A stretch of DNA of 64,000 bases from Octopus vulgaris (lineage: Eukaryota), in the NCBI GenBank assembly GCA_951406725.2, contig OX597834.1, forward strand, positions 17,608,001 through 17,672,000, written 5' to 3'. Positions 27,866 through 50,603 of this stretch are shown here, in pieces. Numbering within the stretch: the stretch's first letter is position 1; each line of letters starts with the position of its first letter. Below the pieces are notes generated by a model, which did not search any database, was not told the origin of the DNA, and worked only from the letters and a program-made list of their open reading frames with translations. Both the position numbers and the translations under genes were made by a program.

Positions 27866-27987
<122 letters not shown>

Positions 27988-28205
27988 ATATTCTCCCCGC
28001 CTCCTTTTATTGTTTTCTTTTTCGTTTATAGAAAATTATTAAAAATTAAAATTTAAATCCGATGAAAAGGAAGCGAAAAAAATAAAACAAACTCTAACAA
28101 TAATGACGATTAAAAAAAATAACGAGACCTTTGGATTTTTACTGAACTTTTACTTCGACTAATTAAAAGTTAGGATAAAAGAAAAATTGGAATTTAACTG
28201 CAACA

Positions 28206-28281
28206 ATGCCTGTCCGAAGAGGCAGAAGGACAGCCGGTAATAGGTTTCTGGATACTATAATAAACCGAGTTGAAGGATCCG
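28206..28281 (+). CDS. KCNH2: First coding exon of an ERG-type (KCNH2/6/7-like) voltage-gated potassium channel (PAS-cap)
   Basis: ATG in ACAATG context. Encodes MPVRRGRRTAGNRFLDTIINRVEGS, 15/25 identical without gaps to human ERG [25 protein letters not shown]. The 76 coding nt are followed by a perfect GTGAGT donor (28282), the same length and phase-1 intron as KCNH2 exon 1. Confidence 0.88.
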
Positions 28282-28722
28282 GTGAGTACAAAGGGGAATT
28301 TTGTTGTTACAGTCGGTGTGTTTTTGGTGACGGGAGAGAAAAGTATTGTTGTTTTTTTTTTCCTTTTTTACGAGTGTGTTTTCTGTGTATCGAGTTTCAA
28401 TACTCATGCATGCAAGTTAGTGTATGAGTATATATTTACATATAAGGACATATATATGAAATAAATATATGTATGTATGCGCACATGAAGTAATTGTTAG
28501 ATGTGTGTGTGTGTTTGACACTGTATAATTGTCTAATCAATATGTATGTATGTGCAAGGAAAATCATGGGAGCATTATAGCATGTGCTCTATCGGAGCAT
28601 ATTTATTATAATTTGCGGCCCACCTGGGACTTATACACTGCGCGATGATAATAATAATAAAAAAAAAATTATGATTGAGTTCAAAAATCATCTTACACTT
28701 TATTATGATACCTGATTAGTAC

Positions 28723-29055
28723 TGGTTTCAAATTTTGGCACTAGGCCAGCAAGTTCGGGGGAGTGGGTAGGGAGAAGTTGATTACATCGACTCTCCGTGA
28801 TCGACTGGTACTTATTTTATCGCCCTCGAAAAGTAAACCTTGGCGGAATTTGAATACACGATTCACATTAGTGACACGCATAAAGCGGCGAGCTGGCAGA
28901 ATCATTTGCACGTCGGGCAAAATGCTTAGCGGTCATTTTGCCTTTCTTTGCGTTCTGCGTTCAAATTCTGCCGAGGTCATTTTGCCTTTCGGGGCCGATA
29001 AAATAAGTACCAGTGGAGCACTGGTGTCGATGTAATCGACTAACTCCTTCCCTTG
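28723..29055. mobile_element. Two head-to-head SINE family A copies (- at 28723-28856, + at 28884-29055)
   Basis: CTGGTACTTATTTTATCG...GGCGGAATTTGAA on the left is complementary to TTCAAATTCTGCC...CGATAAAATAAGTACCAG on the right. Confidence 0.8.
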
Positions 29056-29783
29056 AAATAATTAACTACATAAAGGTATCGAATCCTTTATATTACTTCC
29101 ATCTAAATACTTTAATGATATACATATATCAGCACAAACTCAGATTGCAGTGTAAGTTATTAATATCCGTGTAATGGAAAAACGCATCTTCCTTCTAAAC
29201 TAAATGTGAAGTTTGGCACCCTTTAAGGAAGGGGAAGGAAAATATAGGCCTCTATTTTGTTGTCATTTGTCACATTTTCTAGCAAAACTCTCTTCTTTGT
29301 GGTGCGTTTGGAAGTTAACTTTCACGTCAAAAATACAAACGCGTTTTCTATCCTAGACACGTGTATCTTTCATGAAACTCAAGCCGTATCACTGTGATAC
29401 TGTGTGACAAAACTGGACCTTTGAATTACAAATGAGAGAGAGAGAGAGAATTGATCTAGTATTGGTATTTTACTTGCTGACTCGAATGGATTAAAGTTTA
29501 AGTTGATCTCAATGGGAATTTGATCTCAGAAAGACAGAATCATCACTGCAAAATATTCTCTCCCACGATCTAAGTTACCCTACCAATTCGTTGCGATTAT
29601 TTTCTCGGCTTGAACTTCGGGTCACCCCTCTATGTAGTCGGATCATGAAGGAGTCTAAGTTAATCCTTCTTTAGTAATGAATTTGGATAGGGTATAAGTA
29701 GACTGGAGATGAATTACCGACACTTCGGTTGACCGCACTCGATAACAACATCAATTCAGATAAATGCATACTAACTACGCACC

Positions 29784-29824
<41 letters not shown>

Positions 29825-30972
29825 TGTGTGTGTAAAAGTGTATTGTATGTATAATACGTAATATGAAATTTATTATATGCACCTGACTGTAGAATGAAAA
29901 CTGGATGATGTCTAACTCGCATCCTGTATCTTTATTGCACCCATCAGATATTCGCATTATTTGAAATGATGGCTTTTTGGATTCCCTTAATTCACATTCG
30001 TGACAATAATGCCCCATCGTCATCCTCCAATTAACAACACTTATTAGAATTCGTAGTGAAAGTTACATTTTTTAAACCAAATTACAGAAACATTCCGAGT
30101 GTCACTTATCTCTTCCAAAATTCCTCTACAGTTCTCTTATATAATTTAGTACACCATGCCAGTAATAATTTTTTATGCTGCTTGATTCTATAGAAGTGCT
30201 ACTTTATTTAACCCTTTAATCCATCATTTTAAAACCATTGCTAAACCAGTTATTAAGAAAAAACTGTTGCTGTTATTTTCTCTTGAAAGGATTAACAACA
30301 TAAAGCTTAAATCAAAGAATTGATTTTATTTTTAATGTCGAAGTACCGGCTGAAGAGTTATTAGTTGCGTTTTGTCACCATTGCTGTTTGATGTCCAAAG
30401 CAAATAAGCTTGCTTTTTAGTGATTTAGTCCATTATTTCTAAAGAGGCAGCATCTAAATCCAATTTTATCTACAATTCGGCGATATGAAAAATAGTGTTG
30501 GGTGGGACAGTCATGTTGACGAATGTTGAATTCAAATGGACAGGGCCCTTCGCTAAACTGGCTCATTTTGCTTTTCACTTTCGAAGTTGGGACATGAGCT
30601 TGCGAACTTTGTTAAATAATGACGAATGAAAAGTAAAATACAAATAATGATTGGTAAAATCGCATTTTTCAGAAAGAAATTGTACGTTCCTTGAATTCGG
30701 AGAGAAAAACTTGTTTAACTAGTCTGTGGAAACATCCATATGATAATGTATTCGCACACAAATCTGTCTGTCTGTCTGTCTGTCCTTCCTTCCTTTCGGT
30801 TTGTACGAAACATTGAGAAATTTGAAAATAAGTTTCTAAACTGCACAAATATAAATGGACAGAATTATCTACAGGAACCGAACAACCAGTCTTATACATA
30901 CATGCATACATACATACATACATACATACATACATGTATATGATGCTATGATGTATACATGATATATATGTA

Positions 30973-31021
<49 letters not shown>

Positions 31022-31026
<5 letters not shown>

Positions 31027-31221
31027 AATGTGACCGCGTGTGTACCGTTGGCGATTTTTTTACCTCCTTCTTCCCTTCTTTGGATTTTTCCTTTTCCTAT
31101 GTTTCTGACGAAGAGCTCCGCTCGAAACGTTAAACCATCCTTCTTTCCTTTTTTCCTGAGCGTCCAATAATACTATACTTGTTCCACGTCCTCGCGTTGT
31201 TGTTTTCAGGTTTGGATTAAC

Positions 31222-31226
<5 letters not shown>
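31022..31226 (+). mobile_element. ~200-bp Penelope-like pLTR/retrozyme-like cassette inserted in (TA)n
   Basis: Bounded on both sides by pure (TA)n (~30975-31021 and ~31227-31277). Contains a minimal hammerhead. Confidence 0.65.
31101..31135 (+). ncRNA. Minimal type I hammerhead ribozyme
   Basis: GUUU-CUGACGA-A-GAGC(UCC)GCUC-GAAAC-GUU-AAAC. Stem I GUUU/AAAC, intact CUGANGA and GAAA core, stem II GAGC/GCUC, palindromic AACGUU minimal stem III. Confidence 0.78.
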
Positions 31227-31280
<54 letters not shown>

Positions 31281-31787
31281 CAACAGTTGTAGATATCAAT
31301 AATATATTTTATATAGTGCAATCATGATCTGGTATAGAACTGAATGCGTTGGGTAAAGGGAACAGCCCAGCTAAGTGTGAAATTCGGAGTAGACCGTGAA
31401 CTTTGAAATGTATAATATACGACATCTCTACAGATATGCCCCTATGCAGCCCATCTCATTCACCTTTACCACTCTGTCACTTCCTTTCTCACTAACATTT
31501 GACATTAATCCCTCCTTCCTTTTTTATCCGTTACTTACTTCCTATCCCTATTGTATACTGTTAATCTCTCTACTAATTCACTATCACAACTATAAATCTG
31601 TTCTTGTAATCATATTTAGCTGATGTTGGCATCTCTCTTATAAATATCATACACTATCTTTTATTCCTCTTTATGTCGTAGTAGCCCCTTGAAGTCTTGC
31701 AAGATCCAAAGTCACCTCACTAGTGTTGGTGCCACGAAAAACGCACCCAGTATAAACTATAAAGTTGCTGGCATTAAAACAGGCATC

Positions 31788-31914
31788 ATGTATGTATATA
31801 TGCATGTATATATGCATGTATATATGCATGTATGTATGTATGTATGTATGTATGTATGTATGTATGTATGTATGTATGTATGCATGCATGCATGCATGCA
31901 TGCATGCATGCATG
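31788..31914. repeat. (TATG)n/(CATG)n tetranucleotide microsatellite
   Basis: Direct read. Confidence 0.95.
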
Positions 31915-32221
31915 CAGTTGAAAAGCGGTTAAGAATCTATACAAATCAAAATTTATAGTTAAAAAGTAAAGGTGTAAAACGTACGAAAGTATGTTCAAAG
32001 ATTGCTCCATGTTTATTCCATTGAGTGACCTTTACAAAATATATCCGGTTTCAATCTGTATGTCCTTCCTTTCCTTCAGTGTTCTGCTTGGTTTTAACCA
32101 GAAATGATTGGCGAAAGTAGTATTAATTTTCTAGGTCGTTTAATTTTTCTCAACCGATCAGTGGGTCAATTGAGTAAATCTCACTAATACAATTCCTGTG
32201 TAATATAATATTTAACTTGGC

Positions 32222-32460
32222 CCGTGCGGTAAGAAGCTTGCTCCCAAACCACATGGTTCCGGGTTCGCTCCAACTACGTGGCACCTTGGGCAGGTGCCTT
32301 CTTCTATAGCCTCGAGCCGACCAAGGCCTTGTGAGTGGATTTGGTAGATGGAAACTGTGTGTGTATTTGTCCACCCCCATTGCTTGACAACCGATGTTGG
32401 TGTGTTTACATCCCCGTAACTTAGCGGTTCAGTCAAAGGACCGATCGAATAAGCACTAGG
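32222..32460 (+). mobile_element. SINE family B
   Basis: GTGCGGTAAGAAGCTTGC...GGTTCCGGGTTCG...CTTGGGCAGGTGCCTTCT...GTGAGTGGATTTGGTAGATGGAAACTG. Confidence 0.8.
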
Positions 32461-32488
32461 AAAAGTAAAAGAAAAAAGGAAAAGTGTG

Positions 32489-32535
<47 letters not shown>

Positions 32536-32539
32536 ACAC

Positions 32540-33755
32540 ACATGGCAGAAGTAAATAGACGCCATTATAATTACTAAAATTTATTTAAATCTGAAATTAT
32601 ACATTAAATTTATTTATTAATTGTTATAATATAAATATTTAATATTTAGTAGACGTGCCCTTTGCATTTTTCAATGCAAGGACTCTATTGGGCATGTTAC
32701 TGGTCAGATGACGAATATTCTCTTGCGGAATTTCTTGCCAAGTTTCATGCAGTAATCTCAAAAGATTTGGCTTTGAAGATGCTTTCTTGTTCTTTTTATG
32801 AAGTATCCTGTCCATTATGTCCCAGAGGTGTTCAATAGGGTTCATATGTGGTGACTGGCTTGGCCAAGGAAGCCTTTTAATGCCATTCTCATCCAACAGA
32901 TCTTCGATCATTTTAGCTGTGTGACAAGAAGCCCCATCTTCCATATATAAAGTCTTCTTAAATCATTTCACCACTGGAGAAGATTGGAAGGAGTCCTTTC
33001 TGCAATATGGACACATACTTATCTGATTTTATGTTTCCCTCACATTTTATGTTTCCCTCACACTCCACCAAGTCTAAGAACCATTGCTTCCCAGACCATC
33101 ACAGAATAGCTGCTGTGTTTCATTGTTGGCTGCAATCTTTTCACATCAAATTCTTGATCACAGAGTCTTCAGACACACACTTGACCACTGTCAAGAAATA
33201 CAGCAAATCTAGACTCATCAGCGAATATGACAGTTTCCCAAAATGCTAGTAGCTTCTTCACCATCTCACTGGCCCAATCTTTTCTCCGCTTGATGTTGAC
33301 TGGTCGAAAAAGAGGCTTCCTTCTTGCTGCTCTGCCATAGTCACAAAGTTTGTGGAGATACGTGACAGCTATTCTGGGACTGTCTGCTATGTCAGAGGCC
33401 TTGCAACGAGGGTTATCCTCCACATTTCTCTTAACAAAGAGAAGGGTCTGTCAGAGGCTGATCTGGGTGAGGTGATGCAGACTCCTTTCCCTCTATGGTG
33501 AATTGCACAATCACTCTATTAACTGTAGAAAAGTTTTCTGCGATTATGCGTTGGCTATGTCCACCTTCGCAATGACCCACAATACGGCCTCTTTGAATTT
33601 CAGGCAGTTCTAAGGCTTCTTTTGTACAATGCATGATTAAACAGTTACATATAGAACCTGAACATAAAAGTGTCAATTAATGAAAAATATGAACATTTAA
33701 GTGTGAGAATAAACTTAGAATGATGTTTTATGGGGTGTGTATTTACTTCTATCGC
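32540..33755 (-). mobile_element. Tc1 (D,D34E) transposon, decayed
   Basis: RGRIVG...STVNRVI HTH; AARRKPLF; VIFADESRF; EDGASCH; WPSQSPHMNPIEHLW. Probable TIR remnants CAGAAGTAAATAGAC (~32546) / GTGTATTTACTTCTA (~33738). Confidence 0.88.
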
Positions 33756-33932
33756 GCGCGCGTGTGTGTATTTGTATGTATGTATACACATACATATTTA
33801 TTTCTGAAATTAAAGAATTGGGTATGGAAACAGCTGTAGGTAGGAATTTCTATGCATGAACTTGAATGTCTTTAAGTAAAAACATCTGTACGTAAATTTT
33901 TATCCTTTTTCATAATTTTCTTATTTAAAAAG

Positions 33933-33984
<52 letters not shown>

Positions 33985-34772
33985 GGTATTTATATAAGCT
34001 TAAAGCTTATGGTGATCACCGTGCAATGATAAGGGAAAATAGACTAATAAAGGGGCATGTAAGCCCTCGACAGAAAAAAGAAGGCTTTCCTATCTCATGC
34101 GGGATAGGAAATATACATATATGTATTTACGTATATGTATGTATGTATATGTATATATGTATGTATGTATATGTATATATATATGTATGCATATGTATAT
34201 ATATATATATATATATGCATATGTATATATATATATATGTATGTGTATGTATATATATATGTATGTATGTATGTATATGTATATATGTATGTATATATAT
34301 ATATATGTATATATATGTATATATACGTATATATATATATGTATATATACGTATATATATATATGTATATATACGTATATATATATGTATATGTATATAT
34401 GTATGTATGTATATGTATATATATGTATGTATGTATATGTATATATGTGTGTATGTATAAATATATATGTATGTATGCATATATATATGTATGTATGCAT
34501 ATATATATGTATGTATGTATGCATATATATGTATGTATGTATGCATATATATATATGTATATATGTATGTATGTATATATATATATATGTATGTATATAT
34601 ATATATATATGTATATATATATGTATGTATATATATATATGTGTATGTATATATATGTATGTATGTATGTATATATATATATATGTGTGTATGTGTATGT
34701 ATATATGTATGCATGTATGTATGTATATGTATGTATGTGTATATATATGTATATATATATATATATATGTTT

Positions 34773-34815
<43 letters not shown>

Positions 34816-34852
34816 TATGTATATCTATCTATCTATTTATCTCTCTCTCTCC

Positions 34853-34900
<48 letters not shown>
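33933..34900. repeat. Long (TA)n/(TATG)n low-complexity array with a ~135-bp unique insert (33981-34115)
   Basis: Direct read. Source of the spurious Y/I/M/C/V ORFs. Confidence 0.95.
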
Positions 34901-35099
34901 TTGTATGTTAGTATATACAAATAGGTATACACACATACGTATGACAAACTTGCAAACAAGGTGTCGTCTGAGTAGAAAGACGACTGTTAGGTCCATTGGA
35001 AATCATTTCTGCGTGAAACCATTCATTTATATGAATCGAAATATTCTTATAGATTATTCTAGATCTTTTTACTACCTGAAGTACATGGTAAGGAAGTTA

Positions 35100-35580
35100 A
35101 AAATCTTCGGACGAAAGGAAAAAGAAATTCGTAGTGAATCAAGTTACCTATCGTCACAATTGTTGGGTGATAGCGTTTAAGCCCTCCGGAGTCCCTATTG
35201 TTATCCAAATTAAAAGTCCTGTCTTTGTGATGATGTTTAAATTCATAGCAAATGACATGTGATGCCATCTACTATCGTCGAAGTGGACTTGATATGAGCA
35301 CAACTGACTATTTGGACATCCCTGATAATATTCTGACACCAAGAATTTCTAAACATTATGATCCAAATGGCAATATGTCCACCAAAAACTCGGCACCAGA
35401 GCAAGATTCAAACTACATGCAGGAGGATTATTTCACGGTGAAACTTTGAAACATTCACTATTTGTCTTCAATGATGTTTGGACTTCTAGCCTGCTAGATC
35501 TGAATCTGTGTCTCTTTTGGATGTGGGACGTCATTGAGAAGAAGTCTAATGCAACAATCTATGCCGAAGTCTGCTACTAG
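35100..35580 (+). mobile_element. Tc1/mariner (maT-like) transposase remnant
   Basis: HQNSAPE (cf. QQDSAPAH) near 35380 and WTSSLLDLNL..FWMWDVIEKKSN (cf. WPPSSPDLNPLDF.MW) near 35478-35550. Confidence 0.55.
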
Positions 35581-35774
35581 GAAGGTATTTAGGTTTATTT
35601 GGATGAGGCAAAAAAAAAAAAAATGCTTACCTTTCCACCTCTATATACCTGGTGGTGGTCGTGGTGGATTTATTTAATAATATCTTAAGCATACAAAGTT
35701 TTATGTTTCTATCTTTTCTATTTGTTTTTATTTTGCTTAATTACTGGGCTTGAAACATTACAGCAATATCAATT

Positions 35775-35838
35775 TGTGTGTGTGTGTATGTGTGTGTTGT
35801 GCATGCACACATATAAATTTATATGTATACATATCCGA

Positions 35839-35869
<31 letters not shown>

Positions 35870-35912
35870 TGTATATACATACACATATATATATATATAA
35901 TATATACACATG

Positions 35913-35975
<63 letters not shown>

Positions 35976-35997
35976 GTGTATGTGTGTGTGTAATGTG

Positions 35998-36090
<93 letters not shown>

Positions 36091-36152
36091 GCTTATGTAT
36101 TATATATGCAGACACGCGCGCGCGCACACACACATATACATATATATATATA
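35775..36152. repeat. Mixed (TG)n/(TA)n/(CA)n microsatellite field
   Basis: Direct read. Confidence 0.95.
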
Positions 36153-36559
36153 TTAGATGTACATTCATTTCTAGTTCTACTCAAAACATTTTGCATGAAC
36201 CTACACAAACTCTTTTACATTTTCTCATAAATTCACGAATCTGCAATATATGCGTCTCATGTAAATATAGTCTACGTGTGTCTGATTAAATTTTCATTTT
36301 CTGTCTTTTCGTTTTTTTTTTTCAAACCAATCCTCTGCACTGTGTCCTTTTGTATTTTTCACTGTCCTCTCTATTTTAAGCAGTTTTCTTTCATCTTCCC
36401 AATTATCCTCTTCTCTACTCACCCTGTTGATCCCGTTCACCGCCTGATCAGTTTATTGTATTACATTTTATAAATAAACAGCAGTGGAAGAAAGACAGGA
36501 TAGAAAACAAAAACAATCTCTTTAAAATAAATCAATAACTCATAAACACACTCACATTA

Positions 36560-36598
<39 letters not shown>

Positions 36599-37644
36599 AT
36601 TCGTATGCTTATATTGTAAGTGTAGATGTATGAATGCCAGTGTTAGGTTTGATTGATTTTTATCCATATGTTTGTAAATAATAGAACTTATCTAGTTATT
36701 GTATTCGTTGTTGTTTCTTGAAAAAAGAAAAAAAAAGCTGTTAATCTTATGTACTGAAGGAAAAAACATGAACTCTACGACTTTCCCTTTATTCCTATAA
36801 ACCTGGGATTTAATGGATTAATGAAAAAAAAAAAAAAAATAAGGCATTCTTTGTGTTTTAGTTTCACATCTGTGTTCTGATTTCAATTCCTTCACTTCCG
36901 TCATTAGTGAATTTTCCAATAGAAGTGATGTTCACCATTTTTTTCCTTCTTTTCTTTGTTGCTCTTTTTTTTAAAAAAAAAACGTCTTTTATTGAGTTAA
37001 AAAAATTTTGATCGATATTAATCCGACACAGTTTCGATTCATTATTGTAGTAGCCAATTTCACTTGGCTGACTCCCAAATGTCTTTCAGGTCCTCCGAAA
37101 GAAAGTTAGCGAGGAGGAATAAATCTGCTTTCATGTTCCGAGTCAAAATTCATGGGAATGCGAGTTTTTTTTAAAAAATACTTTCATTATTTAGAAGGGG
37201 TTCTTAGATAGTTACGTGCCTCTCCTGTGTTTCCTTGGTCTTGAAATGATGAACCAGCTGAACCTATACTCCTTCAAGAAAAGAGACGTTGTATAGCTTA
37301 TTTCTCATCATATATAAACTTGAGGTCTTACGATCCAAATCATCACAGTGTGTTATTTAACTAAGAAACTGGAGACATTCACTTTAGACTGATAAGATAT
37401 TGACCAGTATTTGTTTTATTGACCACAAAAGAATTCCTAGGTGGAATTTTAAACTCAGAACTTAAAGGGATGTAACTAAGTATTCTCGGTGTGACAGTTC
37501 GGCAATCTGCTATTCACCATCTGCAGAATAATCATAAGAAGAAACTATATCCATTATAACATTTCCACATTTTCGCTTCTTTTCATATCAAAAACTTCCA
37601 AGGAACGACTTTACAGTTTATTTCTCTAATATGGGTAAAATATT

Positions 37645-38245
37645 GGTTTCAAATTTTGGTACAAGGCCAGCAGATTCAGGTGAGGGCGTATGTCGATTAC
37701 ATCGACTCCAGTGCTCAACTGGTACTTATTTTATCGGTCCCAAAAGGTTGAAAGGCAAAGTTGACCTTGGTGGAATTTGAACTCAGAACTTAAAACGATT
37801 CTGCCTTCTCGTTGCTTTAATATCGATAAAATATTTGTCTTTATTGCACTCAAGGGGCTAAACATAGAGGGGACAGACAAAGGGATTAAGTCAATTACAT
37901 CGACTCCAGTGCATAACTGGTACTTATTTGATCGACTCCGAAAGGATAAAAGGCAAAGTTGACCTCGGCGGAATTTGAACTCAGAACGTAACGACAGAAG
38001 AAATACCTATTTCTATTTCTTTACTACCCACAAGGGGCTAAACACAGAGAGGACAAACAAGGACAGACAAACGAATTAAGTCGATTATATCGACTCCAGT
38101 GTGTAACTGGTACTTATTTAACCGATCCCGAAAGGATGAAAGGCAAAGTCAACCTCGGCGGAATTTGAATTCAGAACGTAACGGCAGACGAAATACCAAT
38201 AAGCATTTCACCCAGCGTGCTAGCCTTTCTGCCAGCTCGCCGCCT
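37645..38245 (-). mobile_element. Three tandem SINE family A units
   Basis: The core GAAAGGCAAAGTTGACCTCGGCGGAATTTGAACTCAGAAC recurs at ~37750, ~37950 and ~38138. Confidence 0.88.
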
Positions 38246-38360
38246 TTCGATAAAATATTATCTCTATGTTGATATACTTTAATATACATTTAAGTGGCGA
38301 ATTTGTATCTCCCAAAGAATATACAGTTCATTCATTCTCTTTTACTACTAGCAAGAGGTA

Positions 38361-38597
38361 AGGCGACTAGCTGGCAGAAACGTTAGCATGCCTGGCAAAA
38401 TGCTTAGCGGCATTTCGTCTGCCGTTACGTTCTGAGTTCAAATTCCACCGAGGTCATCTTTGCCATTCATCTTTTTGGGGGTCACCATTTGAACAGTTGG
38501 GTCGATGAAATAACCACCATTTGAACACTGGGGTCAATGTAATCGTCTTACTCCCTTCCTCGAAATTGCTGGCCTTGTACCAGAATTAGAAATCATT
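38361..38597 (+). mobile_element. SINE family A, inverted relative to the 37645-38245 array
   Basis: AGGCGACTAGCTGGCAGAAACGTTAGC...GAGTTCAAATTCCACCGAGG... Confidence 0.85.
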
Positions 38598-38867
38598 ATT
38601 AGCAAAAGCCCCAACGGAGTTCATCTATGTCATAGGTCCAGTTATTCTTAAACTGTGCATATTAGGCTCAATGAAGTGGTTTTATGTGTTATATATGTTC
38701 GGATGTGTGTATTTGTTTGTTCGGTCAAGGTAAATACTGTGCAGAAATGTCTGACAACGTGCAGCAGGGTAAAGCATAGAAAGCACAAAAAGGATGAAAA
38801 AAGATTTTAAATTTAATTAAGTGTTGAAAGTAATTTTGTTTTATGGAGTGGGATTATGGAATAAATA

Positions 38868-39072
38868 TTGGTTTCAAGTTTTGGCATAAGGCCAGCAATT
38901 TCGGGGGACAAGGTAAATCGATTACATCGATCCTAGTGCTCAACTGGTACTTATTTTATCGACACCGAAAGGATGAAGAGCAAAGTCGACCTCGGTGGAA
39001 TTTAAACTTAGAACGTAAAGACGGTCGAAATGCTGCCAAGCATTTTGCCTGGTGCGTTAACGATTCTGCCGC
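38868..39072 (-). mobile_element. SINE family A
   Basis: Same core and tail as the other copies. Confidence 0.8.
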
Positions 39073-39129
39073 TTTGTTGGTGGAAAAAATATTAAATGAT
39101 ATTGATTAAAGCGAGTCTTGTCAAAAAGT

Positions 39130-41140
39130 TTTTGTTGGCCGTAAAGTGCAAATGATTTCATTGCGCTAGTGCTGGAATTTTACGACTCTGGAGATGTGAA
39201 CATAATAATTCAGAACATCCTGAACTCAATATGGACAGCATGTGCAGTATTAGTACCACGTAAGCACAAAAACATCTCAAAAGTGCAATTTGGGAGACTG
39301 CAGCAGTCAGACTTGCCAGGAAAGAACGTCGTAATGCTGAACGGGAATACAAACTGCATAAATCAGGAAAAAGTGCAATAAATCATTCAACCATCTCAAG
39401 CAAGGTGACAAAAGAGGGCAGTACTTGAATTTGAGCAGTGCATAGCAACCAACCCTGACAGTGAGGTGTTCTGGAAATATGTGCGTTCAAAGCAGAAACC
39501 TCACTCTCCAGTTGGTTCTCTTCGCAATCCCCACACAAACCAGATTACTGATGATCCCCTAAAATGCGCAGAACTCATTGCTGAAAGCTATGCAGGCATT
39601 TTCACTGTCGAAAACTAAAACGTACATCTCCACCACCTCTGACACCAAATTCCATAAAATTCCATGAAATTTACATCTGCAATGCTGCGACATCATCTTA
39701 AGAATAAGCGCAACTATGCTTCTCCTGGTCTTGAGGGTGTTACGTACCTGCTTCTCAAACGTGGTGGGTACGTTCTTCTGCACCAGCCTTCATTTTTCTT
39801 TCAGTTCTGTCTTAACGGTGTTACTCCGGAGCAGAGGAAAACTACCAGTGTCATTCTTCTGTTCAAAAAGGGTGACCGCACGTCGCCTGTCAACTATCGT
39901 CCAGTCAGTCTTACTAGATGCATTGCCAAACTGATGGAATCCTGTGTAAGAGGAAGACTCCGAAATTTCTGGAGTTCTCACAACCCTATCCGGCCTTCGC
40001 ACTTTGGATTTATCCCTAACTCTAGCTGCTGTGATCAACTTGTCGAGTTTCTTGAAGACATTACCCGGGACACTGATGGCGGCTTATGGGTGGATATTGT
40101 TTACCTAGACTTTGCTAAAACTTTTAATTCTGTGTTACACAAAAGACTTTTGGCAAAATTCTCTGCAGTGAGTGTGAAAGATGATCTTTTTAACTGGTTG
40201 GAGTCCTTCGTTCTCAGCTGAAAAGAGGTAGTCACGGTACTAGGACAGCATTCTTCATCCTGTGAGATGTCATCTGGTGTACCGCAGGGATCAGTTCTTG
40301 GTCCCCATTTGTTTGTTGCATACATTAATGGCATAGATGTCAACTCAAAGAATGCCACAGTGGTAAAATATGCAGATGACATCAAGCTGTACCTTGAGAT
40401 AAAAAGGACAGATCCCGAACACTATAGATCTTTCCTGCAATCGGACCTGGACACAATACAATAATGGATCACAGACTGGCAACTCAGGCTGGCTGTGGAC
40501 AAGTGTATCACCATGCATTTTGGGAGGAAAAACCCAGCGTCCACATACTCTCTCCACAACACTAATATTAAAGAAGTGTTTTTGTGAACGTGACATGAGC
40601 ATTACTGTCAGCAGCGATTTGCGCTGGAGAAAGCACATCTCTAAAATTGTCAAGAAGGCTGAGGGTGTCTTGGCATTACTCAGAAAGATCTTTGTCAGCC
40701 ATTCTCCAGTTATCTATTTAATGCTGTATATGACTATGGTGCAGCCACACTTGGAATTTTCATCAACAGTCTGGAACCCCTATCTTGCTCAGGACATTGA
40801 CTTCCTGGGAACTGTTCAGAGACATGTAACCAAGCGAATGCCCTCCATGAGGCATCTATCATACTCTGAACATTTTGCTTCCTTGGGCATAGATACATTG
40901 AAGCCCCGACGTCTGGCAACTGACCCACAAAATTATTAACCATCGTGTCAACAACCACCCTGAGCACCTTTTTCAGCTCCATGTGTCAAACACACGTGGA
41001 CATGCCTACAAAGTCAGAAAACAGCACAACTCCCATGACTTTCGGAAACATTTTTTCACACTCAGAGTTGCTGAAGCATGGAACAAACTACCTGAATCAG
41101 TTGTTAGTTGCTGAGACATTGCATCCTTTAAAGCCTCCGA
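39130..41140 (+). mobile_element. CR1-clade LINE, 5'-truncated ORF2 (reverse transcriptase) pseudogene
   Basis: LFKKGDRTSPVNYRPVSLT; DIVYLDFAKTFNSVLH; SGVPQGSVLGPHLF; KYADDIKL; MVQPHLEFSSTVWNPY; TRGHAYK. Stops and frameshifts. Confidence 0.95.
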
Positions 41141-41747
41141 AAAATTTGGTATTACAAAACTTTGTATTACAAGTTTTGCAAGTATTATGTATGTATTACA
41201 AATTAATTCACGAAGCATCTCTTTAAGATACAGATTAAAACGTAACTATAATGAGTTTATAAAATTTTCCTGTGAAGTTTTTCAAGTTCATTGATTTTAT
41301 TTTTCTGTGTACTATTGACACTGTGGAGAAATTATCCATGTAGTTCTCATTCTGAGTATTCTTCATTCATTGTCAAGGCTCACTGATAAAATTCATATAT
41401 AATTCCTCTTAAGTCATTTCCTGTTAAAAATGCAAATTAGCTTGCCATGGTCGTGGATGCGACTGTTTCCTATTGTAAAGCCATAGCTAACGTATTTTGC
41501 TTGTTTGTAATCTTAAGGGAAAAACTTAACGGTGATTCGGATTATGTACCCCAAACATATTGGGAAATATTTTCCTTAGTTTTACTTATCTATTTATTTT
41601 ACAAATTTTGTGTTTCAAACAACGGAAATTACGATTCTGAATTTTTTGCATAATTTCAATTCTTTTACAATCCCCCCCACCTCCACTAGAATTCTGTAAC
41701 TTTCTCATTTCCTATGAGGTATGGTTTTCCTAATCCGAAACTCCATC

Positions 41748-41919
41748 CATGCCCAACGCTAGGGGTGGGGGAAGAGGATAGCACTGCCCCCTCACTATTC
41801 AAAGGTGCACCCTCAGATTTAGAAAATACAGTTTACAAAAATCTTCCCACAATGCAAATTAGTACCTACCCAGAATATTTTGAAGCATCCCCGGGCATGG
41901 AAGTCAGGCGACGGGCCTG
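41748..41919 (-). mobile_element. hAT-like MITE (copy 3 of 3)
   Basis: Perfect 8-bp TSD ACTCCATC (41740-47 / 41920-27). TIR CATGCCC...CGGGCCTG. Confidence 0.85.
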
Positions 41920-42358
41920 ACTCCATCATAAAGTTGTATTGTTTGTAACAAACTGTACTGAATGTGTTTTTGTTATTCTTCTCTAACTCTCACTCTCTCA
42001 ACAATTCATTAAAAAATATATTTGCTGATTTAAGTAATTATTCGAGAGTAGCACTGGATGTTATTTCCAGACGAGTTCTAGTCTCTTCAAATTATTATTT
42101 TGGAATTGCATCATGGTTACATTAAATTCAAACTTCCTTGTTATTATGTCCAGTTGTAACAACTACTAATTAACAAAGGCTTTTTATTCCCCTTCCTAAT
42201 TGAGTCGCTCTATGTTATATACTGACAGTATAATTATTTTATTAACCTCTAACCCCAGTGATGGAAAGGCAAGTCGACCTCAATGGTCGACTCCAACATC
42301 CCTGTCGAGTTTGCCACAAGTATCAGAATATCATGAGCTTAAAGTTAGATCCTCAGGC

Positions 42359-42403
<45 letters not shown>

Positions 42404-42432
42404 TAATAATAATGATGATAATAATGATAATA
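42359..42432. repeat. (AAT)n microsatellite
   Basis: Direct read. Confidence 0.95.
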
Positions 42433-44329
42433 AACGAGCTTAGCTAGCAAGCAAACACCAGCTTAGCCAGCCGTTGGTGTTATTTCTGGTCATTTAGTAG
42501 ATTTTCTTTTTATTGATCTCGAAATCGATTTCAGAGGTAGTGACTATATCAGACTAATATATATATCCGTTGAAGGTATATACTTAACAGAGCAGCAGAG
42601 TGAAGAATATGCCCTTCAGCGATTCATCGCCCTTTTGGCAGTTTAAAGAAGTAAAGGTTAAGTGTTAAAGTGGCTTTCAATTTTATGGCATCCTAGTTCT
42701 TGAGTCAACGTTTTACGTTGGGTGTGCAACACAAATTCACTTGCAGCACTTTAACGAGCAACCTGGTAGATAGGTCAGTAAAATTAGTTGCAATGAAAAC
42801 AAGTACAATCCTATTAAACACGCCTGATATGTCATTACATTTAGACGTTACTGTTGTTTTTATCTTTCATTGAGATGCTGTGACATCTCCAAACGGATCT
42901 CTTATTTAGTGCATATAAAATTTTCTTACATACCCACAAAGTAACTCATTTGTTGGTGATGGTAAGTGGATTGTTGATCAGATCGATGACTAGTAATTAT
43001 TTTATTGCACTTGGAAGGATAAAAGGCAAAAAGATGACAGGATTTCAGTTCATACAATAATGGAATAAATCACAATGTTATAGAAAACAATACAATTGAC
43101 ACAACAGTATAATATGTAAGCAGGGTTTTATTAAAGATAAGTATTACATACTAAAAGAAAAAAAAATGCTTATACGGCACATAGTTGTTAACAGTATTAA
43201 ATTCTGTTACAAGCAGTCTTATAAGATATAGACAATAAAAGTATATCTTTACACGTAAAGTATTTAATCAAGAAACCTGAACGCGCGCGCGCGCGCACAC
43301 ACACACACACACACACATCTAAGTAATACAATCTTACATCAACCAAGTGAATCATTTAATCACCGAGTGCACAACGACTCAAAAGACAATCGGTGCTACG
43401 ATTTATGTTTATGTCAATTAAGCAAATGGAGCTGAAATATATCGCATCAAGTAAATGCGGAACATTTGAAAGAAGTTGGAAATATATTCACTTAGTCATG
43501 GGAGAAGTCCGATTTGAAATCATTTTATTTTACTTACGTTGCTGATATCATTGACAAAGTCATAACAATCATTTGCTTTTGTTTCCTTGATTCAGTCAAA
43601 TATGAAATCTAGGCAAAAATAAATATGTATCTGTGTGTGTGTGTGTGTGTGTGTGTGAATACAAAACAGGAAAAATGCTCATTGGCTTGTTGGTTCATTA
43701 TTAAATATTTAATTTTCGTCAAATATTTCTTACTCAGAACCCCTCCTTCTCTATGTTATATTCTAGTAATTTTTGTAAGTCATTACTGAAAAAGAAGAAA
43801 AAAAAATAGCGACACTTTCATCAAGTATACAATGCTTCATCTGCTTCTTATATCTCTTCTTGAAAACTTACCTCTGACAGATGATCTGGACTGTGGAGAG
43901 CTAATTTATTTTGGTAGAAGTACGTCTCAATATTACTAACGAAATAAGAATCATTCACGTTCAGCTTGAATACCAAAATACTAACAATTTGTTCTGCTAC
44001 AACACACACTTTATGAAAAGAGTATTTTGAAATATTTCCAGTTTAAATTTTTATGAAAAATGTGGAAATTAGGGGAAATTTTAAGTTTGGTGTTTTGCAT
44101 ATTTGAAACAGAGAGAGATAGAGATATTTGGAAATCAAACTGCTAATCTGTAAGTAAGCATATTTATTGTTTAACTCATGCGAAGAGATTAAGCAATTTA
44201 TGTAGAGTCAGTTAAACTCTCGTAATAATACGAAAAATAGAATTCAATAAAATTTTAAATGATTATTTTTTTTTCATTTGTTGACGTTTACAGCTATCCG
44301 AGTCAATGAGCTGTCAGACGGCTGGTCGA

Positions 44330-45020
44330 ATGTACGTTATCAACGGCGATCGCAACCTTGAAATGTCCCATTCATTTCCTATCCTGTCCTGTTCGTCCAT
44401 CCATAGTTTGATGACAATGATATCACTCAACAGTTCTAAGACATCCAGTGTTTCGGGGAGTGGCTGACAAGTCAAATAGAGACACAAAACATTGGACAGT
44501 CGGAACTCCACGCCAGTGCGCTGAAAGCTTTGGACTTCCAGGACTCCATTAGCGTAGCTAGGGGGTGGGGCGGGCGGTAGAGGCGGCACTTGTAAAGGGG
44601 TGGTATTTTTCATCCTGTTGTAGGCAATATATGTTTTTTGTGGGGTCAGGGGGCGGCAAACGGAAGGGCCTCCAGGGTGGCACACACTCTAGCTACATTA
44701 GTGCATGGCTCCCTCTTTTACTCATATGTTATGATATTTTTCCTGGTGAGGTTGTACTTGGTAGATCTCTCAATAACAAAGTTATCTTATATCTTTGGAT
44801 TGACACTGAAGAACAAGTTCCCAGAGACCAAGAACTTCGATGTCATGCTATTGCCCAGCAGTGCACACACTCTGCTGTACAGGGCTCGACTGTAACTGGC
44901 CTGATCGCATTGACAGAATGGACGAAGAACGCTCTCTGAAACATTATTTTTGCAGTGAGTTGGCTGGGTGGATATGATCGATTAATGGATAGTTCAGATG
45001 CTATAAAGACACTTGCAATG
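44330..45020 (+). mobile_element. RTE/BovB-like LINE 3' fragment interrupted by a MITE
   Basis: WPDRIDRMDEERSLKHYFCSEL...CYKDTC (cf. WAGHV.RM...R.PK..FY.EL...RYKD) at ~44895-45015. Confidence 0.6.
44547..44703. mobile_element. GC-rich hAT-like MITE
   Basis: TIR CATTAGCGTAGCTAG / CTAGCTACATTAGTG. Imperfect 8-bp TSD CAGGACTC/CATGGCTC. Confidence 0.65.
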
Positions 45021-47416
45021 CTTCCTCATCTACTTAACTATAATAACGTTGATAGGAAAAAACTGACCACCGCAAACAGATGTAACGTTTAATAGACACA
45101 TGTTTCGCTAACTTGCAGTATCGAGTTCAAATCCTTGTAAGAGTGTTGCCTGATTTTCCCTTTAAAAACAATTTCCCTGTCTGTATTACACGACTTCAGT
45201 AGGCATTCAATAAAGCTTGAATACTACTGGCTAAGGAACTGACACACAGTGTCAGAGAAGTTGATTTAATCGATCCAGTACCATTGCTTTATCAGTCCGA
45301 GAAAAATAAAAAGTGAAATTGATCGTTGTGGGCCCTGAACTTAGAATTTAGAGGGACCGTTAATCAATTACTTTGTCTAATTACTACTTCTGCCATCCAC
45401 ATCTGATTCCAGAAAATAATAAAGGATAGTTTTGCATAGACTGTTCGTTTGTTTTTAGATGGTTAAGTTGGCTACTTTTCTTCACCAAAGTTATTCATAA
45501 ACTATGAAATTTTACAATACTGATGCTCACGACTGCGAATGCTTCTATCCTATGGTGCTTATATGCAACAAGCTTGTTAAATGCTTGATTAGTTTGCCTG
45601 CTACGAACATAACACAATTCTTCTGACGATCATCGACTACCTGGAGAGTTAGTTGATAGACAACAACATATCTTGATAGTCGCAAGTGGGTACGCTGCCT
45701 TTTCCACACTGACGAAGCTAATTATAAAAATAAGCCGGTCGTTGTTTCGTTTGTTTTGCTAGAGCAGATCAAAGCGCTCCAGCCACGATCTTACCGCATT
45801 TTTTTTATTGACCAACACTGTATTACTCAGTGTGTCTTTTCTTTTTTATGACGATATGGTAAGGTATGATTTGAAAATGTATTGTTTCTAGCAGGTGGAA
45901 TAACCATGTAACAGTATCCTCGTTGGTTGAAGAATACTATCGATAAAAATTAATTGATTGATATTATACTAAGTTAACGGAAACAGACCCGTGAGCTTAC
46001 GGGTCGGCCCACGCTGGATAGTCACGCTCTAGGTGACCGTCGCACCCCAAGGAACACTCCCTTGAACAGCTGTCGAGTGGTGACCTCAACGATTTCGGCA
46101 GTATCACTGACAGTTTTACTCCCTCCAGCGGGTTCTAAGTAGTATTGATACTATCAGAAAATTTCGGGGTTCTTTTGACTCACACCGTAGAACACCTCCA
46201 TCCCGTTTTCAATACAGCCACCATACCAAACCGAGTTGCAACTGTAAGCGCGCCAACCTTGCAACTGAAGAATTTTTTTCTCCCTACCCTTTGAACTGCA
46301 ATGCATGTGATGAAGTATTTCCTGCATCCGCCTCCTCTAAACAAATCACTGCTCTGTAGGCTTTGTTTAGTCCAATGCTAGCCAAGTGAATGTAGTTATA
46401 ATCCCACGGATTATTCTTCCTCACTACAGGCGCCTTATGATTGATTGCCATCTTCTGAACTGAATCACAAATAATTTAATGTTTTACCATCAGTCACTTC
46501 TTTAATGAAATACATAATAAAATTAGGTAAAAGGGTATGGATATAAAAGAATTGAAAGAGCAGTGTAGATAGGTATAAAGGAAAATCGATTGAAAGATCA
46601 AGTTAGAGATAGGTAAAAATGTAATAGAGTAAAACACTAATCTAAGAGTTACTTCCCTTCCATCCTGTATATTTTATTTCCAATTTTTCTCGAAATAACT
46701 ATCTGCTTATATTTTGATACGGCGACTACCCATTTCTGATAGGATTTTAAGTTGAGATTACTCTCGGCCAGACACATTTAAAGCCTTTTCTCAATGTTAC
46801 TTTGGCGGACTTTCAGAATAGCTATCAGGAAATTTTGTTTCATTATATTTTTTCGCTATTTTTTAAATAATTTTGTAATATCCCACTTGCCAAAACACTA
46901 GGAATTCGCATTTAAAAAGACCCCCCCCCCTAGTTTTCAAATTTCATCGCGCCTTCAGAATAGCAGCCACGATTAAAATTTTATATTAATCCTAACAGCT
47001 AATTTTCTTTTTTTTTTTTCACTCCTATGTTATATTTGATGGCAAACTTGAACGGTTCGGGGCAACCCATTAAGATGTTTCGACTCACAAACGAGAAAAT
47101 AAATACTTTATTACGAAAACACGCTGTTATTTTCTACCGGCGATCTATACTGATTAATCCCTCTGCTTGCATTTTGTGTTTTTTCTTCGAAATAACCGAC
47201 GCGAGTCTATGCTTAAATTTGTCATAAGCACAAGGTCTATGTGCACAGTAAAATTGATGCTTGCACATATACAGGTACAGATGAGTGGCGAACAAACACG
47301 CATTCATCGTTTTGTTACTATTACTTAAGTGTCATTATTCGACTTTATGATCAGTCGGTCTGTCTGTCTCTCTGTTTCTGTCTGTCTGTCTGTCTCTGTC
47401 TGTCTGTCTGTCTCTT

Positions 47417-47450
<34 letters not shown>

Positions 47451-47839
47451 GTTGCAGCCATATACTGGAAAATACTTTATGGCTATAAACTGGTAAAACA
47501 CGCAGACAGATACGTATAATTCTAGCACTAGTTGGGTAGACTGAGTCACTAATGAACTATCTTGCTTTACATCACAGCGCAACTTCCACGAGAGTAAACA
47601 TACATACGACATATATATATATATATATATATAACCGCTTATTTCATTATAATTACGAATAATGTTTCAATCGCTTATTATCTGCTGATTATTGTTATCG
47701 AAAGAGCTTTGTCCAAAAGCGACCACAATAAGCGGCTTTCACTGTATGCGCACTACATACATGAGAAATTTGAAACTGTTGGATCTAAGTTATAGATTTT
47801 CATTTGTACATATTATCATAGGTGCACTAGGCTATATAA

Positions 47840-48040
47840 CAGTGGTTTTCAACCAGGGTTCCGCCAGTACAGTCCAGGGGTTCCGCAAGAAGTTACAAAA
47901 CTGCTAAAATCGGCAGTAATTTTTAATTCTCCTGTGCAGATATGTGTGCATAAGACATTTAAATTATTGCACAGGGGTTCCTCGAGCCAGTGGAATGTTT
48001 CCTTGGGGTTCCACTCCAGCAAAACGTTTGAAAAGCACTG
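47840..48040. mobile_element. hAT (Charlie-like) MITE, 201 bp
   Basis: TIR CAGTGGTTTTCAA / TTGAAAAGCACTG. Perfect 8-bp TSD CTATATAA (47832-39 / 48041-48). Confidence 0.9.
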
Positions 48041-48570
48041 CTATATAACAACAGATTTGCTTAAAAGCCCACAAATGCTGGAGTTCGCCAAAGAAAGACA
48101 AACTAAACGTATTCTTATTGTCCAAACACAATGGATTAGTGGTACTGTGAAAATTTGCAAAACATTCCAAAGAATCTTCATCCGAGGTTCCTGAGCTAAA
48201 CAACATGCACACAGTCACATATGCATATTAAATCCATACACATACAAGCAGTAACGAAGCAAACAGACACACTTATGTACCCAAGTAACATGTATATCCA
48301 CTGAGTTCAAGCATACTTACATACACCAATTCAAATACCTACAAACCCGAAGAAGTGTCTTGACTTAAACAAAAGATCTTCGTCACTTTGTTAGTGACCG
48401 GTTTGAATTCTTCAAAGGAAAAATAACTTAAAATGCCCAATACATACATCAAAGATAAAGACTGGCTTTCCTTTTTAGTGAAGAAATATAACCCACTCTA
48501 CCTCAACAGCTACTCAACTTTTATAAGCGGCTTTTACTGTATTCCTACATACATACATACATACATACAT

Positions 48571-48880
48571 GCATCACATGATCACGTGACCGACCAGGCC
48601 ATCAGATGTTGCTATACATCGCCGGTCACAATGCACTTCACATTGTTTTAGCCTTCAATGACACCACCCCGCTGGCTAAGCGAGCCGGCTAACAGAAGAA
48701 AGAGTGAGAGAAAGTTGTGGTGAAAGAGTACAGCAGGGATCACCACCGGCGCCTGCCGGAGCCTCGTGGAGCTTTAGGTGTTTTCGCTCAATAAACACTC
48801 ACAATGCCTGGTCTGGAAATCGAAACCGCGATCCTACGACCGCGAGTCCGCTGCCCTAACCACTGGGCCATTGCACCTCC
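48571..48880 (-). mobile_element. SINE family C with alternative 3' tail, inserted in (TACA)n
   Basis: 48700-48880 is nearly identical to 5967-6148. 48571-48690 differs from the other copy's tail. Flanked by (TACA)n. Confidence 0.85.
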
Positions 48881-49029
48881 ACACATACATACATACATAC
48901 ATACATACATACATACATACATACATACATACATAATGAGAAACTTGCAGCTCTTGCATCTTAGTCCTAGATTTTCATTTCTGTTATTGTCATAGATAAG
49001 ATTATGCAGCTGCTAGTCTCACAGCTGTG

Positions 49030-49520
49030 TGGGGCTGGTGCTTCTTTGGAACCTTGACCGCATCCAGAAAGAAAAATAAACCCTCTTTAATTAATATGAA
49101 GTCACTGACTAATAGGGATCAGCACGTGTCATGTAGGCGCATTGTCTTCGCTCTCATCTTTTGCTATCATTGTCACAATGGCCTCGATTCCTTCGAACTG
49201 GTTGTCCTCATGCGACTCCACCCAATCACTCCCAATTCACTTGCCTCTCTTCTTCTCGTCATCCCTATTATATTCAAACCCCAGATCCTGCACCAACTCT
49301 TATGCTTAGTCTTCCTTCAAGAATGTTGTCCCTTGAAATGCTCTCTTTGTACATGTTTTCCTACAGCCGTCAACTTGCGACTCTTAAAAAGAGGAACGTC
49401 AGCTGTGTCGAACTCACCAGTCGCGGAAGATTTGCAAATCCCATATGACCGTCGGGTGTCTTTCAATCGTGAATTATTCCTTTCTTTCACGCACACCCTT
49501 TCTTCTGTTCGTTAATGCTA
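49030..49520 (+). mobile_element. L2/CR1-group LINE 3' end fragment (related decayed piece at ~49940-50300)
   Basis: RRIVFALIFCYHCHNGLDSFEL...SRHPYYI...VFPTAVNL (cf. HRR.V..L.LFYRY.HG.CS.EL...H...VFP..YNL). Confidence 0.55.
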
Positions 49521-50385
49521 TACTTGCTGTTCACTACAATAATGCAGCTTATATGTAAGCCTTCATATTTCAATTTCCCGCATACTGGTGTCACCCACAC
49601 GCAGCAACTTCAGACAGACAGGTACTGCTGAATAATGACTGTGAAAAATTCCTCAGTAGAGACACGGTAACCTCACCTCTTTTAGCAACAATAACAACAA
49701 CATACACACAACATGCAAAACAGTCGATACATATTTTAATGAAACTGGTTTGCACCTCATTCCTTTTAGTCAGAAGTAACAATCCACTAAAATCTTCTAA
49801 ACCGTGTAAAGGCTTAGAATTTCAGATGACACCAAATGTATAATCTTTTTAAAACTGCTCTATTAAGCCTAGTTCTCTAGAAAGTACATCAGCCTTGAAT
49901 AGTCGAGGATTCTCTCGAAAATTTTCAAATATGTGTCATATTACAATAGATGCATGAGACGGTGCTGCTGCTTTGCAAACAAACAACTGTGAGCGATTTC
50001 ATAAGAATACTATTCTTCTTTTGGTGAATATTTAATTATCAACACTTTGAAATAACCAACTCACAAACATGCAGTCTCCTCTCTTTTCTTCTTCTACCTG
50101 TACAACAACGGTCTCTGATCTTTTGGACTGACTGAATACTTCACCCAGACACACTTCATCCCACTCACCATGCCTCATCACCGAGCATTTTTCAACGCTT
50201 CTTCATCCGATGTCTGCAACTTGTCTGAACTTCTTCTCTGCGCACTCTTATATAGCGAACATTGACATAGAAATGTTTAAACCGAACACCAACCGCATCG
50301 ACCTCATCAGTCTGGAAGGGTTTGCAAAGGTGACCCTTCTCTGATTGCTTTAACAAAATGTGTCAGCGAGGAAAGCTCTGAGTGG

Positions 50386-50603
50386 TTGTTCGTTAGCACG
50401 CCGGGCGAAATGCTTAGCGGTATTTCGTCTGCGTTACGTTGTGAGTTCAAATTACGCCGAGGTCGACTTTGCCTTTCATCCTTTCGGGGTCGATAAATTA
50501 AGTACCAGTTACGCACTGGGGTCGATGTAATCGACTTAATACCTATGTCTGTCCTTGTTTGTCCCCTCTGTGTTTAGCCCCTTGTGGGTAATAAAGAAAT
50601 AGG
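50386..50603 (+). mobile_element. SINE family A, young copy with 'GCCCCTTGTGGG' tail
   Basis: Near-consensus core GCCGAGGTCGACTTTGCCTTTCATCCTTTCGGGGTCGATAAATTAAGTACCAG. Confidence 0.88.

What the first reader, a model, noticed from the sequence alone, without database searches (positions are those of the whole stretch)
28206..28287. Hidden 76-nt first exon of an ERG-type K+ channel with a rewritten PAS-cap
Seen: an ATG exon encoding MPVRRGRRTAGNRFLDTIINRVEGS, then G|GTGAGT. The ORF track shows it only as the start of a read-through 73-aa ORF. Known: vertebrate ERG channels begin [25 protein letters not shown] with a 76-nt phase-1 first exon, the APQNTFL motif is conserved across EAG/ERG/ELK, and this cap controls slow deactivation through contacts with the CNBHD and S4-S5 linker. 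Here HVAPQNT becomes RRTAGNR (three extra arginines, conserved Pro lost) and RKF becomes NRV. Inference: this may be a divergent cephalopod ERG paralog with altered gating.
Basis: partly seen in the sequence, partly recalled or inferred. Interest (0 to 1): 0.8.

Follow-up and report, generated by a model that had tools for sequence, protein, structure and literature searches.

The report
Octopus ELK potassium channel, first exon
This is a real, spliced first exon of an already annotated octopus ELK-type (not ERG-type) potassium channel gene whose regulatory front end changed quickly in octopus, squid and cuttlefish ancestors, which is a modest curiosity for ion-channel specialists.

Summary
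The exon is real. It has 76 coding nt and a GTGAGT donor, and contigs of 3 of 3 RNA-guess runs splice from it into a PAS exon. It is neither hidden nor ERG. Its 25 residues are identical to the start of RefSeq Octopus KCNH8-like proteins. No ERG-named protein is among the best 120 homologues. The protein keeps an Elk-specific basic residue after S6, and it groups with gastropod and bivalve ELKs in a tree that had no ERG outgroup. The hERG-like start is a few steps from ordinary ELK caps. The 76-nt phase-1 exon is inferred for ELKs too, and 15 of 17 other mollusc ELK caps also lack the Pro. What remains: the cap helix and the PAS domain diverged on a long coleoid stem (about 1.0 substitutions per site). 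Two His residues invariant in 46 other ELKs changed (S4 His to Pro, S6 His to Tyr). Annotated isoforms swap this cap for an unrelated one, or drop PAS as hERG1b does. Gating effects are inferred, not shown.

The parts
27990..28205 (+). 5' leader of the same exon (minimum extent; contigs run 28-32 letters further upstream, start not mapped)
   Evidence: X5 and X6 contigs cover it continuously with the coding part; X1 starts at 28063
28206..28281 (+). Coding part of first exon '1a' of the octopus ELK (KCNH8-like) gene: PAS-cap residues 1-25 plus the first base of Gly26
   Evidence: Translation; identical to N-terminus of P0001, P0003, P0004, P0013
28282..28287 (+). Phase-1 splice donor GTGAGT
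   Evidence: Sequence; 3 of 3 RNA-guess contigs leave here, X16 does not
28282..64000 (+). Intron 1, at least 35.7 kb, rich in repeats and transposon remnants; exon 2 lies beyond the window
   Evidence: tblastn of Octopus, Argonauta and decapodiform-type isoforms finds only exon 1a in the window; repeats
28062..28162 (+). Two short upstream ORFs in the leader (28062-28085, 7 aa; 28103-28162, 19 aa); function untested

Best explanation
This is exon 1a of the coleoid orthologue of ELK (Kv12, KCNH3/4/8 subfamily), a low-threshold neuronal K+ channel. SHOWN: the exon, its splice into PAS, the identity of the gene, and the kept residues. INFERRED from ELK work: the cap still works as a normal ELK cap. 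Residues 13-22 form the amphipathic helix on PAS. PAS docks on the neighbouring subunit's CNBHD through R55-D607. The flexible tip, with R5, acts with R345 (S4-S5 linker) and R474 (after S6) to give PIP2-dependent open-state stabilisation, that is slow deactivation and mode shift. The extra Arg at 7, 8 and 13 probably retune this electrostatic contact rather than create a new mechanism (about even odds of a measurable gating change). The gene also has other annotated first exons that give an unrelated 25-residue cap or no eag domain, so promoter choice probably sets deactivation speed, as hERG1a/1b does.
For: Identity. Domains PAS, Ion_trans and cNMP_binding. Of the best 120 homologues none is named KCNH1/2/5/6/7; non-cephalopod rows score 759-1003 bits, against 565 for hERG and 513-520 for EAG. 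Control: Patella ELK also has hERG as best PDB hit, 594 bits. Domain fragments favour ELK: the Eag-like PAS 4hp4 scores 133.5 against hERG PAS 110.5, and 3ukn scores 235 against 4l11 167 (that these two are zebrafish ELK and mosquito ERG is recalled). R474 matches Elk1 R479, which PMC4621751 says all Erg and Eag channels lack; hERG has Gly there. K5, R57 and R347 equivalents are kept. Tree: coleoids fall on the mollusc side of a branch with SH-aLRT 95. AlphaFold gives residues 1-11 low confidence and a helix at 13-22. Splice.
Against: The tree had no ERG or EAG rows, used the quick search with SH-aLRT only, and the coleoid stem is long. At 5 of the 38 ELK-conserved columns changed in all three coleoid representatives, the octopus residue equals hERG's (I19, V40, G350, Y457, E663; read by eye). 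The intrinsic ligand is FNL as in hERG, though 7 of 46 other ELKs also have Phe there. The Elk-specific S4 His is lost. Only 27-30 letters beyond the junction were seen, so the link to the transmembrane part rests on RefSeq models. The runs are RNA by guess. No electrophysiology exists here.
Confidence: 0.8

Rival explanations
1. One reading: a divergent cephalopod ERG (Kv11) paralogue with a rewritten cap.
For: The 25-mer's best PDB hits are KCNH2 and KCNH7, and hERG is the best full-length PDB hit. A few hERG-like residues occur (S6 Tyr, FNL). Molluscs do have an Erg duplication (bioRxiv 10.1101/2025.09.21.677649).
Against: No full-length ELK chain appeared in either PDB search, and a canonical ELK gives the same ranking. 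Named top homologues are all ELK. The Elk-specific post-S6 Arg is present. Argonauta has MPVRKG, one step from the octopus start and close to the MPxRKG of annelid, nemertean and brachiopod ELKs.
Confidence: 0.03
2. It is the ELK orthologue, but the eag domain is under relaxed constraint and partly uncoupled from gating. The new Arg residues are then drift, and the channel behaves much like an eag-less ELK with fast deactivation.
For: All three coleoid representatives differ at 15 of 65 conserved eag-domain columns against 21 of 199 in S1-CNBHD (Fisher p = 0.02, one test). The gene tolerates an unrelated cap and PAS-less isoforms. Loss of the eag domain is reported in some Erg lineages.
Against: N12, F14, L15, D16, I18 and G24 are invariant in the 39-row alignment. 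R5 and R55-D607 are kept. The derived helix is nearly the same in octopods and decapodiform-type sequences, which suggests renewed constraint after the stem.
Confidence: 0.2
3. It is a fast-evolving duplicate of ELK, and a canonical ELK copy exists elsewhere in cephalopod genomes.
For: A long stem branch, about 1.0 substitutions per site, is typical after duplication. No genome was available to search.
Against: A canonical octopus ELK should score like other mollusc ELKs (760 bits or more), yet the only Octopus or Argonauta rows among the best 120 belong to this gene (only 8000 candidates of 575-1833 aa were scored). The tree position is the one expected from species phylogeny. The preprint reports one ancestral protostome Elk, with only species-specific extras.
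Confidence: 0.07

Closest known systems
Octopus KCNH8-like RefSeq models (XP_036367959.1 O. sinensis X2; XP_052831361.1 O. bimaculoides X1)
   Same: First 25 residues identical; same splice into Gly-Asn-Phe-Val-Leu
   Different: Nothing at the protein level in this exon; the window's own species was not determined
ELK / Kv12 subfamily (KCNH3, KCNH4, KCNH8 and invertebrate Elk)
   Same: 50% identity over 678 columns to rodent KCNH8; 63-67% to three lophotrochozoan ELKs over residues 214-672; K5, R57, R347, R475 and R479 equivalents kept; phase-1 intron in codon 26 inferred
   Different: Cap more basic, helix changed and one residue shorter at the junction; PAS diverged (15 of 55 conserved columns in P0001 against 0-7 in 11 other lophotrochozoans); S4 His328 to Pro, S6 His462 to Tyr, pore-helix Ser to Thr, each invariant in 46 other ELKs; alternative caps and PAS-less isoforms
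hERG / ERG (Kv11, KCNH2)
   Same: First six residues, I19, S6 Tyr at the Y652 site with F656 kept, FNL ligand; a PAS-less short isoform like ERG1b
   Different: Lower score (565 against 759 or more bits); hERG lacks the post-S6 basic residue; PAS, S6 and C-linker motifs are ELK-type

Membership tests
KCNH (EAG family) | PAS + six-TM K+ channel core + CNBHD in one chain | tested here: met
   Pfam on P0001; junction into PAS; GFG filter in the sequence
KCNH (EAG family) | Intrinsic ligand (Y/F)NL and PAS-CNBHD salt-bridge residues | tested here: met
   F666-N667-L668; R55 and D607 (PMC7515569 and PMC5440166 passages)
ELK / Kv12 | Closest sequence relatives are ELK | tested here: met
ELK / Kv12 | Falls in the ELK clade of a rooted KCNH tree | tested here: inconclusive
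   Groups with mollusc ELKs, SH-aLRT 95, but no ERG or EAG rows were available
ELK / Kv12 | Basic residue at Elk1 R479, absent from Erg and Eag (PMC4621751) | tested here: met
   R474; Arg in 46 of 46 other ELKs
ELK / Kv12 | Elk-specific outer-S4 His (H328; PMC3664700). A typical marker rather than the criterion by which the subfamily is defined | tested here: not met
   Pro in 5 of 5 coleoid rows, His in 46 of 46 others; hERG has Gly there, so this is a coleoid loss and no sign of ERG
ELK / Kv12 | Low-threshold activation, PIP2-dependent mode shift, subfamily-restricted assembly | not testable with these tools
   Needs expression and recording
ERG / Kv11 | Closest relatives are ERG | tested here: not met
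   None of the best 120 carries an ERG name
ERG / Kv11 | No basic residue at the R479 position | tested here: not met
   R474 present
   Present, but not diagnostic: in 11 other ELK models with a replaced N-terminus the residue before the exon-2 motif is Asp, Tyr or His, as a phase-1 intron inside that His codon predicts
ERG / Kv11 | Fast inactivation, slow deactivation, block by class III drugs | not testable with these tools
   Needs recording

The most novel reading that the evidence does not exclude
Coleoid cephalopods rebuilt their single ELK channel into an isoform-tuned one. Alternative promoters give a very basic cap (this exon), an unrelated long-helix cap on the same PAS, or no eag domain at all (an ERG1b-like form conserved between Octopus and Argonauta). 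The core lost the Zn-binding S4 His and gained the hERG drug-site Tyr. The isoforms would differ in PIP2-dependent deactivation and mode shift, a natural cap-swap experiment in the KCNH family.
Probability: 0.35. Interest if true: 0.55.

Novelty: new variant of a known kind. Interest (0 to 1): 0.3.

Why it matters
As posed (a hidden ERG paralogue) it does not hold, and the gene is in RefSeq. The remainder matters to KCNH biophysicists. A review states that all KCNH channels except ERG1b have a PAS domain (PMC7515569), so a conserved PAS-less ELK isoform would be an exception. It would also add one case of fast ion-channel evolution on the coleoid stem.

Tried and rejected
No genome is held for this window, so exon 2, the other first exons and a second ELK or the octopus ERG genes could not be searched. 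No RNA holder is on record as RNA; the runs used are RNA by guess, and I laid 4 of the 24 listed. The search of 1.84 billion representatives with the 30-residue peptide gave 3 hits: Argonauta P0002 and two unrelated long proteins that I take as chance. The search for short proteins with the alternative cap found only P0002, through PAS, so that cap is known from three Octopus species only; it has no clear likeness to cap 1a (314 of 1000 shuffles as high) and weak likeness to a canonical cap (41 of 1000). tblastn found no other exon of the gene in the window. The careful tree did not finish and the quick tree was used. The model of the alternative-cap isoform is poor (mean pLDDT 47.8), so its long helix is only a hint. 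No complex prediction or fold search was run: eag-CNBHD is a solved textbook pair and folds do not separate ELK from ERG. Earlier scan findings: 3 look-ups, nothing. Paper searches for cephalopod KCNH/ELK/ERG and PAS-less ELK isoforms listed nothing on the subject; the library lacks most subscription papers. The preprint's supplementary trees (Data S13-15) were not seen and may contain this protein. Rejected: 'Pro loss is special' (15 of 17 other mollusc caps lack it, several from close relatives), and 'best PDB hit means ERG'.

Full report
Observation. The window holds an ATG at 28206 with A at -3 and an in-frame stop at 28176. Then come 25 codons plus one G to 28281 and GTGAGT at 28282. It is the only such arrangement on either strand of the window. 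I laid 4 of the 24 runs listed on 27990-28440. Contigs of X1, X5 and X6 (RNA by guess, three studies) end at 28283 with loose ends that read in frame N-F-V-L-G-N-A-K-S, while X16 runs through. The two bases of overlap are the GT that completes the Gly codon. X5 and X6 also cover the leader from before 27990, so the exon is at least 292 nt; 76 nt is its coding part. The X6 contig has about 3000 letters beyond the junction, of which I saw 30.

What gene it is. A search with residues 1-40 of the read-through ORF gave 2 hits among 4 candidates: O. sinensis KCNH8-like X2 (P0001) and an Argonauta protein (P0002). P0001 starts with exactly this peptide and continues into the residues seen in the loose ends. 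It has PAS, Ion_trans and cNMP_binding domains. Its cluster has 14 members, all named KCNH8 or KCNH8-like from Octopus. No other exon lies in the window, so intron 1 exceeds 35.7 kb. The exon is therefore annotated in two species; the two O. vulgaris models seen lack it. I did not determine the window's species.

ELK, not ERG. Residues 1-680 of P0001 hit 3918 of 8000 candidates. Among the best 120 the named rows read KCNH8, KCNH4 or KCNH3, the others are unnamed or hypothetical, and none carries an ERG or EAG name. Non-cephalopod rows score 759-1003 bits. hERG scores 565 and EAG 513-520. hERG tops the PDB list only because no full-length ELK chain appears there: Patella ELK gives the same order. 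PMC4621751 (passages) states that all Erg and Eag channels lack a basic residue at Elk1 R479; octopus has R474, as do 46 of 46 other ELKs. A 32-row tree, with rows chosen by hand and most vertebrate near-copies and odd models left out, puts the 5 coleoid rows with gastropods and bivalves (SH-aLRT 95) on a stem of about 1.0 substitutions per site. It had no ERG or EAG rows and was the quick search, so it supports but does not prove placement. No second octopus ELK appeared among the best 120, which favours orthologue over paralogue. The preprint 10.1101/2025.09.21.677649 (passages; supplements not seen) reports one ancestral protostome Elk and an Erg duplication in molluscs.

The hERG-like start is shallow. 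Argonauta has MPVRKG; annelid, nemertean and brachiopod ELKs have MPxRKG; decapodiform-type sequences start differently (P0140 clusters with a cuttlefish protein, P0016 is unnamed). In 11 other ELK models whose N-terminus is replaced, the residue before the exon-2 motif is Asp, Tyr or His, and in 109 of 123 canonical ones it is His26. That is what a phase-1 intron after base 76 gives (inference). The Pro is missing in 15 of 17 other mollusc caps, several of them close relatives, and present in 5 of 5 other lophotrochozoans. The octopus cap has 6 Lys/Arg against 2-4 in those caps and 4 in hERG.

What really differs. Against 46 other ELKs (31 lophotrochozoan, 15 vertebrate), 275 columns are at least 90% conserved. 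All three coleoid representatives differ at 15 of 65 eag-domain columns and 21 of 199 columns from S1 to the CNBHD (Fisher p = 0.02). P0001 differs at 15 of 55 PAS columns, against 0-7 for 11 other lophotrochozoans. So the cap is part of a wider change of the eag domain. Three residues invariant elsewhere also changed in 5 of 5 coleoid rows: S4 His328 to Pro, pore-helix Ser to Thr, and S6 His462 to Tyr. PMC3664700 (passages) calls H328 Elk-specific, contributing to Zn2+ block and not required for pH sensing. The S6 Tyr aligns with hERG Y652, a drug-binding residue (PMC6992539, passages). At 5 of the 38 changed columns octopus matches hERG (read by eye); I read this as scattered convergence.

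Alternative first exons. Of the 14 cluster members, 4 start with this cap, 6 with an unrelated basic amphipathic cap joined at the same Gly (three Octopus species), and 4 lack the eag domain. One PAS-less start also occurs in O. vulgaris and Argonauta (P0017, P0018); the Octopus and Argonauta leaders align better than 1000 of 1000 shuffles (z = 7.8). These are database gene models; I did not check them against reads, and none lies in the window. PMC7515569 (passages) says all KCNH channels except ERG1b have a PAS domain.

Mechanism. AlphaFold gives the usual cap: low-confidence residues 1-11 and a helix at 13-22 before PAS (mean pLDDT 57). The helix stays amphipathic (hydrophobicity scale recalled). 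In Elk1, deleting the eag domain nearly removes mode shift, K5Q reduces it, and R347 and R479 are needed for PIP2 effects. In zebrafish ELK the R57-D681 bridge supports voltage-dependent potentiation (PMC5440166, passages). All these positions are kept: R5, R345, R474, R55 and D607 (numbering through rodent KCNH8 and, for D607, through hERG D803 by eye). I infer a working ELK cap. Its added Arg residues may strengthen contact with PIP2 or acidic surfaces, and promoter choice may set deactivation speed. None of this gating is shown. The main rival is relaxed constraint on the eag domain.

Novelty and verdict. Searches for cephalopod KCNH channels and PAS-less ELK isoforms (listings only) returned nothing on the subject, within a library that lacks most subscription papers. 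Three look-ups of earlier scan findings were empty. This is an annotated ELK gene with a coleoid-wide divergent eag domain: a new variant of a known kind, interest 0.3. The most novel reading still open is an isoform-tuned ELK with swappable or absent cap (probability 0.35, interest 0.55).

Noticed in passing
Outside the window; proteins P0005, P0007, P0009, P0010, P0012, P0015: A second first exon gives an unrelated basic, amphipathic cap (25 residues in five models, 19 in one) joined to the same PAS exon in three Octopus species.
   Followed up: partly
Outside the window; proteins P0011, P0014, P0017, P0018 and P0006, P0008: Two kinds of PAS-less isoform; one leader is conserved between Octopus and Argonauta, an ERG1b-like arrangement in an ELK gene.
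   Followed up: partly
P0001 residues 326, 429, 457: S4 His to Pro, pore-helix Ser to Thr and S6 His to Tyr in all coleoid rows; invariant in 46 other ELKs.
   Followed up: partly
P0001 residues 713-763: Alternative splicing removes 33 or 51 residues of the C-terminal tail in both O. sinensis and O. bimaculoides models.
   Followed up: no
window 28062-28162 and 28030-28031: Two upstream ORFs in the leader, and a pyrimidine-rich AG that looks like an acceptor, although X5 and X6 read across it.
   Followed up: no
window 27867-27983: TATC/TC microsatellite just upstream of the mapped leader; the contigs appear to end in it.
   Followed up: no
window 9728-10713, 25871-26266, 32639-32962, 39658-40464: Broken transposon remnants: Tc5/DDE_1, Transposase_1 (weak), DDE_3 and RVT_1; 6 of 13 ORFs scanned had a Pfam hit.
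   Followed up: partly
Gastropod ELK caps P0030, P0032, P0035, P0039: The first half of the cap is shortened or Ser-rich in these gastropods, so this part varies across molluscs.
   Followed up: no
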